From: Podarcis muralis
Lineage: Eukaryota
Direction: 5' to 3'
NCBI RefSeq assembly: GCF_964188315.1
Contig: NC_135657.1
Coordinates: 53,506,001-53,570,000 of the forward strand
DNA: 64,000 bases
Shown: one piece after another, positions 3,001 to 9,000 of the stretch
Numbering within the stretch: the stretch's first letter is position 1
Layout of the letters: every line of letters begins with the position of its first letter
Position numbers: made by a program

Positions 3001-6000
3001 ACAGACAACTTTCTGGGTCATGTGGACAGCATGCCTAAACCGCTACTGGCGCAATGGAACACTGTGACGGAGGCCAGAGTGTATGGAAACACCATTTACT
3101 TTTCAGCCACAGCAGTACCAATTTATCTACTTCCACTGGTGTGCTTTCAAACTGCTAGGGTGTCAGAAGCTGGGATAGATCAACGGGAGCTCACCCCATC
3201 ATGCAGATTCGAACTGCCAACCTTCAGATCAGCGAGGCTCAGTGGTTTAGACCACAGTGTGACCAATGCCCCTTTTATAATACTAAATAATAATAATAAT
3301 AATAATAATAATATAAATATAATAATGATGATGATGATGCTGTTCTGCTGTAAACAGCTCTTGTCCCAAATATCTGAAGCAGCAGCTCCTTCCACATTGA
3401 CCTACCAGGATATTAAGATAAACAGGAGATGTCCTATTAGAGGAGCTGCCATCTCTGTGGTCAAGGGACAGCTTTCTGTGTGGCAGACCCTGGTTGTAGA
3501 ATGACCTTCCTTCTGAGGTGCACTTTGTGCATCCACTGGATGCTTTGACAACTGGTGATGATGCACCTCTTACCCAGGCCTTTGGGTGAGGGTCGTCGCT
3601 CCTCCTGATTTGCTATGTACTGCTGTTTGGTGCTGATGCTTTATTACTTGGTTATTGGTTGTTTTGTAGTTTTGTTTTATGATTTTAATATACACTGTAC
3701 TTGTTTTAACTGTAACGTCTTTGTGACTNNNNNNNNNNNNNNNNNNNNNNNNNNNNNNNNNNNNNNNNNNNNNNNNNNNNNNNNNNNNNNNNNNNNNNNN
3801 NNNNNNNNNNNNNNNNNNNNNNNNNNNNNNNNNNNNNNNNNNNNNNNNNNNNNNNNNNNNNNNNNNNNNNNNNNNNNNNNNNNNNNNNNNNNNNNNNNNN
3901 NNNNNNNNNNNNNNNNNNNNNNNNNNNNCTTAGGAAATAGAATGAATGCAGATACAACATAGGCAAATGAAACTAATTAATTTAATTTGAGATGCTTTTC
4001 CGTTGATGCTTTATGTGATGTTTTGTCTTAACAGGGAGCAATAGAAAAAGTGAAGGAAAGTGATAAATTAGTTGCTACCAGCAAAATCACCCCACAGGAT
4101 AAACAAAACATGCTGAAGCGTGTAAGCACCATGTCATATGCACTACAAGGTAAAATGTACTTTGCATTTAAATGACATGGTTTCCCCTGTTAATTGGGAA
4201 TGGGGATAGAAGGGGATTGGTGAAAGGGAATTTTAAGAATAATTTTAGTCACATTACAAATACGTGATGTTTATATGGTTTGGGGTGCAGGGAGCGAAGA
4301 GGCTTTCTCCACCTGTCTGAATTAATTGGTGTCCCCTCCGTCTCTCTGTGTGTGTAGTCAGAAAGGAATCCCTTTCACTTGCTTTCTGGAACTGTAGCAG
4401 TATTTGTCTACTGTATTAAATGAAGTCTATTTCCTAAGACTCCCTCCCCTCCCTCAAGAATTTACAAAGCGTGGAAGGAGGAGTGTTGTATGCTAGGATC
4501 AACCACCACATACTTAATTTTCCTCCAAACCAATTCACACAATCATGGGGCATGCTATGGGAACTATAAAACCAAGCTGCAATGTACACTAGTTTTGTGC
4601 TGCTATTTATGCATGCAGAACTGCAATCCTCTGCACAGCAAGCAGCGCTGTTGCAAAACTGGCTTGGGAAAGGCAGTGGGCAGTAGTTTCAGGTCATCAT
4701 CAGATGACTATGAATCTGCCATCAGTAGTTTCAAAATTAAGTTTAAATTTAAGCTACTAAGATACATTAAAGCATAGCCACTAAAGATGCTTAGCCATTT
4801 TCATGTATCCTGGAGGGGGCAGTCACAATGGGTAAACACAGCTACAACACAGCTACAACACTGTTAACACCTAACTTGTCGTAATCAGCCTGACTTTGAA
4901 TAAAATGCCTGGGTTTTGTGGGGCAGATAATCAACCAAAATTAGAGGTTGTCTATGTGGATATTTAATGTCTTAAGGCTAGATTCAACTAAGGACTTGTG
5001 CTAGCTCAAAAGCATTTTCTCAGCTTGCCAACCTCTCAACTGGCTCTTTGGGTGGTCAGGAAAACCCCTAGAACAGCATATGCAGGTGGAGGAGAGGGAG
5101 GATTGTTTCATCTGGCAATGTGATATGCTTGCACTGATGGAACAATTTCCATAATGTTACGCTGAATTGCTCCCCAATAGTTTCTTCCACAGAAAAGTGC
5201 TCCTGAAAGTCCTCTCAAAATAGAGACTGAAGCTCTCAGCTTCCATCACACTTTATAAACCACAGAGACTATTTGGGGTTTCCTCAAGTGTGAGAACTAT
5301 ACAGTGCACACATACTCTATGCAGGCTTTCTAATCTTGGTCTTCACAGGAAGCTGCCTTGTTATGAGTCGGACCACTGGACCATCTAGCTCAGTAGTGTT
5401 GAAACTCAGTGGCAGTGGTTCCCCAGTATTTCAGAAGATAATCTTTCTCAGCCACACCTGGGGACTGAAGCTGAGCCATTTTGCCTGCAAGGCAGATGCT
5501 CTGCCACTGAGCTATACCCCTTCTCCAAATACCCTAGGACAGGGGTCTGCAACCTTTAAGACAAAAAGAGCCACTTGGACCCGTTTCCGAAGAAAAACAA
5601 CAACTGGGAGCCGCAAAACAAGCCAAATGTAAATAACCACACATTCTTCCCCTTCCCCCATTCTCTCTCTTTTCCCTGAGTCTATTTCAGATAGCAAAGA
5701 GGGGTATGGTACCTCTCATATCCATTTTTTGCAAAGCACCATGTGCATAGAGGGCATTATACAAATTAATACATAGGAAAGTGTCTGTCCCTCCCTGCAG
5801 TTCAACTCCCTCTCTTTTTGCTAACAGCTCATATCCATTCCTTCTGCTGGTGCAACTTTCTCATCATTTCTACATAGCAGCATTTATAAACCAGTGCCAG
5901 TGAAACTGGGTGAAAAGAAGGTGAGAGGGAAGAGATATGAATATTTATGTGTGTATATGTATACATACATACATACACCTACACAATTACAGGTTTGAAG

Positions 6001-9000
6001 CCAACTTAAAATAAAAAGAGCTGGTAAGCAAAGGAATCTGTGGTGCTTTCCATGGGATCCGGGGACATGTCAGCTAATACTCTTCCCTTTCTTCTTCATT
6101 TGCTTGTCTCTGCAGCAAATCTCGAGGGGGAAGGAAGAAGGGCAGGAATTGCATAGGCACGAGAGAACGGGGGAAATCCCGCATGCAGGATTTTGGTGCC
6201 TAACAGCTCCCCCTCCCTCTGCAATTGCTCTCGTGCTCCCCGCCTCTCTCCGAGGCCGAGATGCTGCATCACGGCACCTGCTGGCTACCTCTGGACCCCC
6301 TCCTCGTCACTGACGTAATTCACCCCTTCCTCCCTGACAGGGAGGGCGGGCCCATTTTGTGGTTCACCTCAGATGCTCTCCCTCAACTCGGCGGCCACTC
6401 AGAAGCAAGGCACGGAAAAGGATCCCGAAGCACCACCGCCACCCCTCACACACACATACACACACACACACACACACACACACCCCGCCCCGCCATTTCC
6501 CTCGAGCGTGCGTGCTCTCTCTCTCCCTCGCCTCAGGTGCCTCGCACACGGGGCTGAGGAGAGCGTGGCCTGGGAGAGCGTTCCCCCTCGCCGCCTCCGC
6601 TGCCCGTCCTACCCCGGGGGAAGCTATGAGCCATGAAGCCGCCTGGCAGAACTTCCCTCCGGCGGCGGCAGCAGCAGCAGCCCTTCTCTGGCCGCCGCCG
6701 CCTCCTCCTCCATCCCAGCAGCCGCCGCCTCTCGAGTTCCGCCGCCGCCGCCGCCTTGCTTTGCCCGGCTCGGCTGCCCAGCTCCATCCCCCTCCTCTTT
6801 CTGGCGCTTCTGCTTTTCTGCTCAGGGTCCCCGAGGATCCCCGCGGCAAAGGTGTAAAAGAGCCGCGGGTTGCTGACCCCTGCCCTAGGACAAGAACCCC
6901 CAACCTTTCTTGGTCTGCAGGCACATCTGGAAATCCAAGAACCTGCTGTGGGAAACACAAAATACCCATTTCCCAGTAGAAAAACTGGTGGTGCTCAGGA
7001 CTGCTCCCCCCCTGCAAAAAAAGCACCCTGCAGACAAAACACATACACCCAAACCAAAAAAAGCAAACATCAAAAGCCAAACCTCCAAGGTGTAAAGCAA
7101 TTCCCCAAACAATGCAGAAAAGGGCAGGCAGAACACCCCTTCACCCTAAAAACAAGCAGGAAAAATACTTCCATCCACTTCAGCAACCAATCAAATACAA
7201 AAACTAACTAAAATACACACATTCCAAAACTTAGGTAGTAGCAAGACCCCTTTTCCTTTCCTGAAGAGACCGAGAGTCTGCATAAGTTACACTATGATAA
7301 GCAGCACCCACCTCTTTAAAAGTCATGGTGAAAAAGGCTCCTTACCTTGTGAGCACCTATGATATCTGGGAAGCAACCAAGAAATCCTTTGTATTCATGA
7401 TTGGTTTCCATTAGAAAATGAAGATCCTGCTTTGGCTGATAAAGAGGGGGGAAATCCAGTTATTGACTCCATAACAATAGGTCTTACAAACTCCACATCT
7501 AAACTGAAAATCAGAAGACTACCAATGGGGAGGGGACCATGAAATTTTGAGTGCTGAAAAATGGCAGCTCATCTACAAATTGCAAATGGATACATGTAAG
7601 AAATTGTTACTTTAAAAAAAGATAGCAAATTCAAATATAAAATCAGTGAACATAAATCACTGTATTTTACCCAATCTTTGTACAAATAGGCTTTAATACA
7701 ACAGGGGGTATAAGATTTCAGGGGTTTTTTTTGCCCATGGCCCTTTAGAAAGAGGCACATATCCTGCAAATCATGTGTTGGTGTGGCTGAATCTAGCCCC
7801 TGCCCCCTGCACTTTATAGAGCTAGCAGGTTAGGAGTTGCATGCCCAGCTCCCAGTTACACACAAATTTCCCATTCATTTACTGATACAGAAGCAGGCCT
7901 CTGCATACCATGACTATGGTGGTAGATTTTATTTTGTAACATTTATATACTGCTTGATTGTAAGGGGGGGGACCTCAAAGTGTTTTTTAATCACCAACTC
8001 TTGCTAAATTCTTAGCTCCTTTATAATCACTCAAAGTATGCTATGCATTCCTAGGGAGACAGCCATCCAGTGAGCTTTGCCCACTTGTACAACATGACCT
8101 CTTGTTTCTCTTCTCCCCAACCTGCTTCAGAAGAAGGTGGCTCACCATGTAAGCAAACACCTGCTCCATTTGGACTCACCCATGGACTTCCCCCCAAAAT
8201 GTAGTAGTATGACATACCTGTTCTGCTACAAGACTGGCAATTTCTTCATATGTTTTTCCTGCTTCTGTTATTGCTTCATGGAGGTCAGACTCTCCTAAAA
8301 ACAAATGCGACACAGAGGTTTTCAAGTACGTCAAAATGAGTCACTGAAACAAACAAAAATGGGACATATAGAAACATCTACATTTCAAAGTAAATGTTTG
8401 TTGGTACATGCAGTGATTTCTATAGTAGAAGGTTTAATACTTCAATACTTAATATAAAAATCTTACTTAAGACTTACTTCAAATGTGAAGAATAAACCAA
8501 TCCATGAGGAAAAATAAACTGCCTTTAATTATACCAGTAATTATAAATTTGAAACTAGAAAACTATCAGGACTAAGATGACAAAATTAAATGATAGCATC
8601 TTTATATTTTTCATATCCTTCCCTAGCCACACATGTTCAAATGTTTCTGCTGAACACATCAACACAAGGCTGGGGTTTAGTTTGGCACATTAAGTTTTGG
8701 GGCAAAACAGCAGGGCTTTCATGTAGTCTAATTCACCTATTCTTTGTTTACTGTTGCAAAGAAATGCTGTAAACATGTTTATGTTTGGAATGAAAACATG
8801 TTCTGTGACTTCTGCAACAGAGTTCAAAGCCTGCAGAGCTGATACTGGAGAGAGGAGATAGCTGCTTAAGATTTCATTATACAGGGCCTGGATCAGGTAA
8901 TTTTAGTCTGATTGCTCTGGGTCACAACAATTAACTGGATGTTCCAGACAGTTGGGAGTTAGCTATCGGTTAGGGAAAGGCTGTTGAGGAGCTAGATGAG

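What the first reader, a model, noticed from the sequence alone, without database searches (positions are those of the whole stretch)
3930..7345. SNX9 exon 16 is flipped to the opposite strand inside gap-free sequence
Seen: exon 16 (4035-4149) with intact AG/GT sites reads on the plus strand, while exon 15 (7346-7435) and exon 18 read on the minus strand. There is an N gap on the left side only, so a second breakpoint must lie in called sequence between 4150 and 7345. The hAT element in that interval keeps its direct, non-palindromic TSD, so neither of its ends is the breakpoint. Inference: most likely a mis-oriented contig whose second gap was closed. The alternative is a real intragenic inversion that would disrupt the BAR domain.
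Basis: partly seen in the sequence, partly recalled or inferred. Interest (0 to 1): 0.65.

Follow-up and report, generated by a model that had tools for sequence, protein, structure and literature searches.

The report
SNX9 exon 16 flipped by misassembly
One exon of the lizard-type SNX9 gene does read on the wrong strand here, but the sequence indicates that a roughly 0.5 kb piece next to an assembly gap was put in backwards, so this is probably not a real inversion.

Summary
Exon 16 of SNX9 (4035-4149, AG/GT) reads on the plus strand. Fifteen upstream exon matches (31667 to 7346) and the last exon (1224-1268) read on the minus strand. The only N run is 3729-3928.

Two things are new. First, exon 17 (about 31 codons) is absent from all called sequence, so the gap hides real gene sequence. 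Second, the first 13 bases after the Ns (3929-3941) are the exact reverse complement of 4426-4438. Only 0.38% of window positions start such a match.

This marks a unit of 497 nt (3929-4425), or 510 nt with the second arm. It holds exon 16, 93 nt of upstream intron and 276 nt of downstream intron. Turning the unit round restores exon 15, a 3013-nt intron, exon 16 and then the gap.

That pattern fits a small piece that overlaps its neighbour by 13 nt and was joined backwards without Ns, or a chimeric contig tip. The exon is 38 of 38 residues identical to a cordylid lizard's SNX9, so it has not decayed.

The hAT argument holds: the 8-bp duplication is CCCTAGGA. The "lacertid" label is unverified, because the best match is an amphisbaenian. 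No reads or other squamate genomes were available. A recent real inversion is unlikely (about 4%) but not excluded. Interest is low.

The parts
1224..1268 (-).
   Evidence: tblastn with 5 named squamate SNX9 proteins, 86-100% identity, E 3e-4 to 0.014. The translation is preceded by a CAG acceptor.
3729..3928 (.). The only N run in the window (200 N). Exon 17 should lie between exon 18 and exon 16 and is nowhere in called sequence.
   Evidence: Letters not looked for.
3929..3941 (+). 13-nt arm CTTAGGAAATAGA, the very first called bases after the Ns. It is the exact reverse complement of 4426-4438.
   Evidence: pair I5; 2 matches in the window at up to 1 mismatch, shuffles mean 0.17; 229 of 60359 positions start such a match.
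3942..4034 (+). 3' end of intron 15 in plus orientation, with a pyrimidine-rich tract and the AG acceptor.
   Evidence: Read directly. AG confirmed.
4035..4149 (+). SNX9 exon 16: 115 nt, 38 codons plus 1 base, part of the BAR domain.
4150..4425 (+). Start of intron 16 in plus orientation (GT donor at 4150). It ends at the proposed false join 4425|4426.
   Evidence: The position of the join is inferred.
4426..4438 (-). Second 13-nt arm. On the minus strand it reads the same as 3929-3941.
4439..7345 (-). 5' part of intron 15 in minus orientation (2907 nt), carrying the hAT-like element.
   Evidence: GT donor next to exon 15. The intact element argues that 5532-6890 is contiguous.
5532..6890 (+). 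Non-autonomous hAT-like element 5540-6882 with its 8-bp target-site duplication CCCTAGGA on each side. It has a G+C-rich interior.
   Evidence: ends 14 of 15, duplication 8 of 8; a short copy at 13298-13578 matches both ends in the same relative order; no protein family in its open frames.
7346..7435 (-). SNX9 exon 15 (90 nt, 30 codons).
7436..31673 (-). Rest of SNX9: 14 further upstream exon matches, all on minus, all in open frames with AG and GT candidates at their ends.

Best explanation
This is an assembly artefact. A unit of about 0.5 kb (3929-4425) carries exon 16, 93 nt of the intron before it and 276 nt of the intron after it. The unit sits in the right place but the wrong way round. 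On its left is a scaffold gap that also hides exon 17. On its right it is joined to the long contig at 4425|4426 without Ns. Its true right-hand end is the 13 nt now at 3929-3941, which duplicate the first 13 nt of the neighbouring sequence (4426-4438). That is why an exact 13-nt inverted repeat starts at the first base after the gap. Turning the unit round gives exon 15, an intron of 3013 nt, exon 16, 276 nt of intron 16 and then the gap. Shown: the strands of the exons, the gap, the missing exon 17, the 13-nt repeat and its rarity, the intact hAT element. Inferred: that the repeat marks the false join, and how the join arose. It could be a small mis-oriented contig butted on or 'closed', or a fold-back or chimeric read forming the contig tip.
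For: Exon 16 is on plus. Fifteen upstream exon matches and the last exon are on minus, in protein order. The flipped exon lies 106 nt from the only gap. Exon 17 (residues 575-605 of P0036) is absent in all six frames; the best local score is 43, which is noise. So the assembly is incomplete exactly here. 3929-3941 is the exact reverse complement of 4426-4438 and occurs nowhere else in the window. Only 229 of 60359 positions (0.38%) start a 13-mer with such a partner within 3417 nt, and 101 (0.17%) within 510 nt. The complementarity stops sharply on the inner side. Exon 16 is 38 of 38 identical to Hemicordylus SNX9 (P0011 tail), with intact AG/GT, so there is no decay. All 15 upstream exon matches are open with splice-site candidates. 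The hAT element is intact, which rules out 5532-6890 as a breakpoint. Precedents come from passages read. An inverted contig carrying the first two exons of KCTD15 between gaps was found in an older zebra finch assembly (PMC9516821). Inversions are common when scaffolded contigs are short (PMC6719893). Fold-back artefact reads make up about 0.55-0.6% of nanopore genomic reads (PMC12338684).
Against: No reads, mate pairs, RNA-seq or other squamate genome could be examined, so orientation in the animal is not observed. I noticed the 13-nt repeat after the fact, among 17 inverted pairs listed, and 0.38% is small but not vanishing. The 60 kb to the right of the gap has no further Ns. Whether the complementarity runs on under the Ns cannot be seen. 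The strand-composition test could not tell the orientation of 4150-5339. No open frame of 40 residues or more spans 4425|4426, so that join could not be tested through the protein collections.
Confidence: 0.85

Rival explanations
1. A real, recent inversion, possibly heterozygous, of about 0.5 kb around exon 16. It would arise by exchange or template switching between inverted repeats: the 13-nt arms, or longer arms of which the left one lies under the Ns. The allele would lose exon 16 from the mRNA, shift the frame (115 nt) and truncate the BAR domain.
For: The flipped segment is bounded by an exact inverted repeat, the substrate for such events. The orientation as written is what the record says. 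An assembly can break inside a long repeat arm, which would put the contig end in the arm.
Against: If only the 13-nt arms exist, the contig end would have to fall by chance exactly on the outer edge of one arm. The exon and its splice sites are perfect (38 of 38 against another lizard family), so any inversion would be very young. All other exons are intact. No repeat copy of 4426-5339 is found elsewhere in the window, and nothing left of the gap matches it. Missing exon 17 shows that the assembly fails here in any case.
Confidence: 0.04
2. An assembly artefact of another geometry. The 13-nt repeat is a coincidence and the false join lies elsewhere in 4150-5531 or 6891-7345, for instance a larger mis-oriented contig of up to about 3.4 kb.
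For: The background rate of such 13-mers is 0.38%, so chance is not impossible. The TE argument leaves both intervals open.
Against: No other signature of a join appears in those intervals: no truncated repeat, no flanking inverted repeat, no tandem duplication beyond an 11-nt unit at 4835-4861. The 13-nt repeat explains both where the contig ends and where the join is.
Confidence: 0.07
3. The plus-strand exon 16 is an inverted extra copy, real or artefactual. The working minus-strand exon 16 lies with exon 17 in the unsequenced gap.
For: The gap has a conventional size and already hides exon 17. A fold-back tip duplicates sequence in inverted form.
Against: No second copy of exon 16 or its flanks is in called sequence. 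The only duplicated letters are the 13 nt. The plus copy is identical in protein to functional orthologues. The idea cannot be tested without the gap's letters, which I did not seek.
Confidence: 0.03

Closest known systems
Inverted contig carrying exons in a draft assembly (KCTD15 in the earlier zebra finch assembly; Kim et al. 2022, PMC9516821, passages read)
   Same: A small piece holding conserved exons lies on the wrong strand within an otherwise colinear gene. It sits next to missing sequence, and the gene model is damaged as a result.
   Different: There the inverted contig had gaps on both sides. Here only the left side has Ns, and the right side is joined base to base, with a 13-nt overlap signature at the far end.
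Orientation errors of short contigs in scaffolding (SALSA2 paper, PMC6719893, passages read)
   Same: The order is kept and the orientation is wrong. The shorter the piece, the likelier the error.
   Different: That paper deals with Hi-C scaffolds of contigs of hundreds of kb separated by gaps. This unit is about 0.5 kb, and its scaffolding method is unknown.
Fold-back and chimeric read artefacts in long reads (Heinz, Meyerson and Li, PMC12338684, passages read)
   Same: The sequence turns onto the opposite strand close to where it left and re-reads a few bases in inverted form. Such a read at a contig tip gives the letters seen here.
   Different: Their fold-backs return within 200 bp and are near-perfect palindromes. 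Here the jump is 484 nt and only 13 nt are re-read before the contig ends.
Inversions by recombination between inverted repeats (npInv paper, PMC6044046, seen only as listing and abstract start)
   Same: A segment bounded by inverted repeats in flipped orientation.
   Different: Known cases use long repeat arms. Here only 13 nt are visible, and one arm ends exactly at a contig end, which points to assembly and not biology.

Membership tests
SNX9 (sorting nexin 9) gene | Exon peptides match SNX9 better than the paralogues SNX18 and SNX33 | tested here: met
   Solved SNX9 matches at E 4e-15 to 5e-15. For exon 15, SNX33 reaches only E 0.12. The named hits are sorting nexin-9.
SNX9 (sorting nexin 9) gene | C-terminal BAR domain (Pfam BAR_3_WASP_bdg) encoded colinearly by successive exons | tested here: met
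   Four exons were scanned one by one. They map to profile positions 74-99, 99-124, 125-154 and 155-192 of 236. Two exceed the curated cut-off and two fall just below it (24.8 and 23.7 against 24.9 bits). Positions after 192 need exon 17, which is unseen.
SNX9 (sorting nexin 9) gene | Complete set of coding exons on one strand | tested here: not met
   Exon 16 is on plus and exon 17 is absent from called sequence. This is the anomaly itself. I read it as a fault of the record, not of the gene.
Assembly mis-orientation artefact | Flipped piece keeps its place in the gene order and abuts a gap or contig end | tested here: met
Assembly mis-orientation artefact | End-overlap signature: the outer end of the flipped piece repeats, in inverted form, the start of the neighbouring sequence | tested here: met
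   3929-3941 against 4426-4438, 13 of 13. The background rate is 0.38% of positions.
Assembly mis-orientation artefact | Reads or mate pairs contradict the join, and transcripts show the normal exon order | not testable with these tools
   No reads, RNA-seq or vertebrate genome collection are on hand.
hAT-superfamily non-autonomous element | 8-bp target-site duplication | tested here: met
   CCCTAGGA at 5532-5539 and 6883-6890.
hAT-superfamily non-autonomous element | Short terminal inverted repeats shared by other copies | tested here: met
   The ends match 14 of 15. The copy at 13298-13578 shares 81 nt of one end at 94% and both stretches of the other end.
hAT-superfamily non-autonomous element | hAT transposase, or similarity to a named hAT family | tested here: not met
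   No Pfam family above cut-off in 10 open frames of the interval. No repeat library was available. 'hAT' therefore rests on the 8-bp duplication and the form of the ends only.
Real inversion between inverted repeats | Inverted repeats at both ends of the flipped segment | tested here: inconclusive
   13-nt arms are present. Whether longer arms exist under the Ns cannot be seen.
Real inversion between inverted repeats | Independent evidence of the inverted allele in the animal | not testable with these tools
   No reads or second assembly.

The most novel reading that the evidence does not exclude
The animal really carries, perhaps on one chromosome only, a very young 0.5-kb inversion of SNX9 exon 16 formed between short inverted repeats. 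This would be a natural loss-of-function allele truncating the BAR domain of a conserved endocytosis gene. The assembler broke at one repeat arm because the two haplotypes disagree.
Probability: 0.04. Interest if true: 0.5.

Novelty: not a real feature. Interest (0 to 1): 0.1.

Why it matters
If taken at face value, the record says that a conserved endocytosis gene has lost its BAR domain, and any gene model built on it will lack exons 16 and 17. The most likely cause is a backwards 0.5-kb piece beside a gap. Showing that prevents a false gene-loss or inversion call. It also gives curators an exact place to correct (4425|4426 and the gap). The 13-nt end-overlap signature is a cheap, read-free check that could be run on other flipped exons found beside gaps.

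Tried and rejected
1. Strand-composition test. SNX9 introns 7439-31559 show A over T (+0.031) and C over G (-0.030) on the plus strand, but 1.2-kb windows scatter with sd 0.07. The values for 4150-5339 (-0.003, +0.028) therefore decide nothing, and 1269-3728 even has the 'wrong' sign.

2. Longer inverted repeats that could drive recombination. In 1-12000 only (GT)n at 2855-2887 against (AC)n at 6447-6483 bracket the region.

3. Repeats inside the interval. blastn of 3929-7445 against the window gave 8 non-self matches, 3 to the hAT copy and 5 to the microsatellite, and none for 3929-5538.

4. Protein families. 10 open frames of the interval gave nothing above cut-off (two weak hits, E 0.066 and 0.094).

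5. RNA families and tRNAs. Rfam on 1-12000 gave 8 matches, all below their gathering scores. No tRNA-like gene was found. My reading of 5343-5528 as a minus-strand SINE therefore rests on recalled resemblance only.

6. The same species' annotated SNX9. Searches with the exon 16 frame and with a variable exon (20448-20600) listed no identical protein. The best was Rhineura floridana at 92%.

7. Unnamed short proteins. 11 unnamed short proteins were compared with the window by tblastn. 0 of 11 carry the window's exact exon 16. None aligns to 4439 onwards. One aligns to exon 15 and then exon 16, as a spliced message would. This gave nothing on the join.

8. Left contig end. The last 9 to 20 bases before the Ns recur nowhere within 1-9000 on either strand.

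9. Literature. PMC10166144 (passages) had nothing pertinent. PMC13005343 on squamate gene loss has 0 occurrences of SNX9.

10. A join-spanning open frame. None of 40 residues or more crosses 4425|4426, so the third protein search was not spent.
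Full report
Scope and limits. I did not take the window for human sequence. Its SNX9 exons match squamate proteins best: Rhineura floridana at 92% in a variable exon and up to 100% in conserved ones. All searches with gene sequence were made exon by exon, or with a single open frame of the window. I did not try to recover the letters under the Ns. Supplementary files of papers were not consulted, and none bears on a claim made here.

The observation. The window has one N run, 3729-3928. 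Segment 4035-4149 is 115 nt, flanked by AG and GT on the plus strand, and its frame 0 is open. Its 38 residues match solved human SNX9 at residues 283-320 of chain 3dyt_A (E 4.9e-15, 35 of 38 identical). They are identical in all 38 residues to the SNX9 of Hemicordylus capensis (tail of P0011 printed). Segment 7346-7435 is 90 nt with AG and GT on the minus strand and matches residues 253-282 of the same chain (E 4e-15). The two exons therefore adjoin in the protein and lie on opposite strands.

Scanned one by one, four successive exons map to Pfam BAR_3_WASP_bdg positions 74-99, 99-124, 125-154 and 155-192.

I ran tblastn with five named squamate SNX9 proteins. Every exon match from 31673 down to 7346 is on minus, the last exon (1224-1268) is on minus, and only the exon 16 match (3987-4157) is on plus. 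For P0036 the matches below E 1e-3 are 15 upstream on minus and 1 on plus. The last-exon match, on minus, sits at E 0.001. Three weak plus-strand matches (E 0.32-0.90, 23-38% identity) I take as noise. All 15 upstream matches lie in open frames with AG and GT candidates near their ends. There is no second copy of exon 16.

Residues 575-605 of P0036, which correspond to exon 17 (about 92 nt by the phases of its neighbours), have no counterpart in called sequence. A local alignment of that stretch against all six frames peaked at score 43, with nothing resembling it. The gap therefore hides real gene sequence, and its 200 Ns are best read as a placeholder.

The hAT argument. The element runs 5540-6882. 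Its ends are inverted (14 of 15), and CCCTAGGA is duplicated directly at 5532-5539 and 6883-6890. A short copy at 13298-13578 matches 81 nt of one end (94%) and two stretches of the other, in the same relative order. So 5532-6890 is one intact insertion, and a single breakpoint cannot lie in it. 'hAT' rests only on the 8-bp duplication and the form of the ends. No transposase or named family could be tested.

The second breakpoint. Among 17 inverted pairs found in 3929-7445, one stands out. Bases 3929-3941, the first 13 called bases after the Ns, are the exact reverse complement of 4426-4438. The 13-mer occurs only at these two places in the window, even allowing one mismatch. Shuffled windows gave a mean of 0.17 matches, and 1 of 100 shuffles reached two. 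As an empirical background, 229 of 60359 positions (0.38%) start a 13-mer with an exact inverted partner within 3417 nt downstream, and 101 (0.17%) within 510 nt. These form 31 distinct pairs, many of them ends of small transposons. On the inner side the complementarity stops at once. On the outer side it is cut off by the Ns.

How I read it. Suppose that in the genome the sense strand runs: exon 15, intron 15, a 13-nt stretch 'a', 93 nt, exon 16, 276 nt, and onwards to exon 17. Suppose also that the assembly held this as two pieces sharing 'a': a long one ending in 'a', and a short one beginning with 'a'. If the short piece is laid down backwards and butted onto the long one, three things follow. 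The shared 13 nt appear twice in inverted form. One copy sits at the very end of the short piece, against the gap. The false join lies directly beside the other copy. That is exactly what is seen.

A read that turns onto the opposite strand 484 nt ahead, runs back and forms the tip of the contig gives the same letters. Either way the unit is 3929-4425 (497 nt, or 510 nt with the second arm). Turning it round gives an intron 15 of 2907 + 13 + 93 = 3013 nt, then exon 16 in phase (exon 15 ends on a full codon), then 276 nt of intron 16, then the gap. The end of the left contig shows no comparable overlap with anything nearby.

Why not a real inversion. An exchange between the two 13-nt arms would also leave them in place. 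But then the contig end would fall exactly on the outer edge of one arm only by chance. The exon and both splice sites are perfect, and every other exon is intact, so a real event would have to be very young. A longer repeat arm hidden under the Ns would explain the contig end and could in principle drive a real flip. However, 4426-5339 has no other copy in the window, and even then the assembler's choice of orientation would be a coin toss. I put a real inversion at about 4%.

Precedent, from passages read:
- An older zebra finch assembly had an inverted contig with the first two exons of KCTD15 between gaps (PMC9516821).
- Inversions are common when scaffolded contigs are short (PMC6719893).
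- Fold-back artefact reads make up about 0.55-0.6% of nanopore genomic reads (PMC12338684).

What stays open:
- The 13-nt repeat was noticed after the fact.
- The window right of the gap is free of Ns for 60 kb. That fits a chimeric contig tip better than a free 0.5-kb contig whose gap was closed, but I cannot tell the two apart.
- The composition test was uninformative.
- No open frame long enough crosses the join, so the protein collections could not test it.
- The same species' annotated protein was not found.

Verdict. The feature most probably belongs to the record, not to the animal. Interest is low.

Noticed in passing
window 3729-3928 and all called sequence: SNX9 exon 17 (about 31 codons, residues 575-605 of the Rhineura protein P0036) is absent from all called sequence in six frames. 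Any gene model from this record will lack it as well as exon 16.
   Followed up: yes
window 5620-6840: The interior of the hAT-like element is unrelated to the short copy at 13298-13578. It is very G+C-rich (0.65-0.67 over 6251-7000), with a (CA)n run at 6447-6483 and GCC/CGG runs at 6660-6760. It looks like a captured CpG-island-like segment. No protein family was found.
   Followed up: partly
window 10740-10838 (-) and 21710-21793 (-): Two optional SNX9 exons. The first matches only the Rhineura isoform (P0036 residues 422-454). The second matches only the Lerista protein (P0019 residues 98-125). They are probably alternatively spliced.
   Followed up: no
window 5343-5528 (-): A stretch that reads like a tRNA-headed squamate SINE on the minus strand, directly beside the hAT insertion site. 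This rests on recalled resemblance only. ARAGORN and Rfam found nothing, and there is no other copy in the window.
   Followed up: partly
window 3340-3728 (+) and about 2330-2640: The left contig ends inside what reads like the tail of a common reptile repeat. This would explain why the assembly broke there. I judged this by eye only.
   Followed up: no
window 10225-10358: A 59-nt imperfect hairpin (75% complementary) with weak microRNA-family matches far below their gathering scores (38 bits against 105). It is probably a small inverted-repeat transposon, next to further 'TACAGTGGTACCT' inverted repeats that recur at about 17.5 kb and 33.6 kb.
   Followed up: no
window 43756-45496: An exact 111-nt inverted repeat pair about 1.7 kb apart, with further shorter pairs around it. 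It is likely a transposon with long terminal inverted repeats.
   Followed up: no
window 41543-43043: A cluster of overlapping long open frames on both strands (up to 298 codons) with no Pfam family. The 10 scanned were chosen from the 18 open frames of 110 or more codons in 31700-64000. It is probably a G+C-rich stretch upstream of SNX9 and not a gene.
   Followed up: partly
whole window: The best protein matches are to the amphisbaenian Rhineura floridana (92% in the variable exon 20448-20600).
   Followed up: partly
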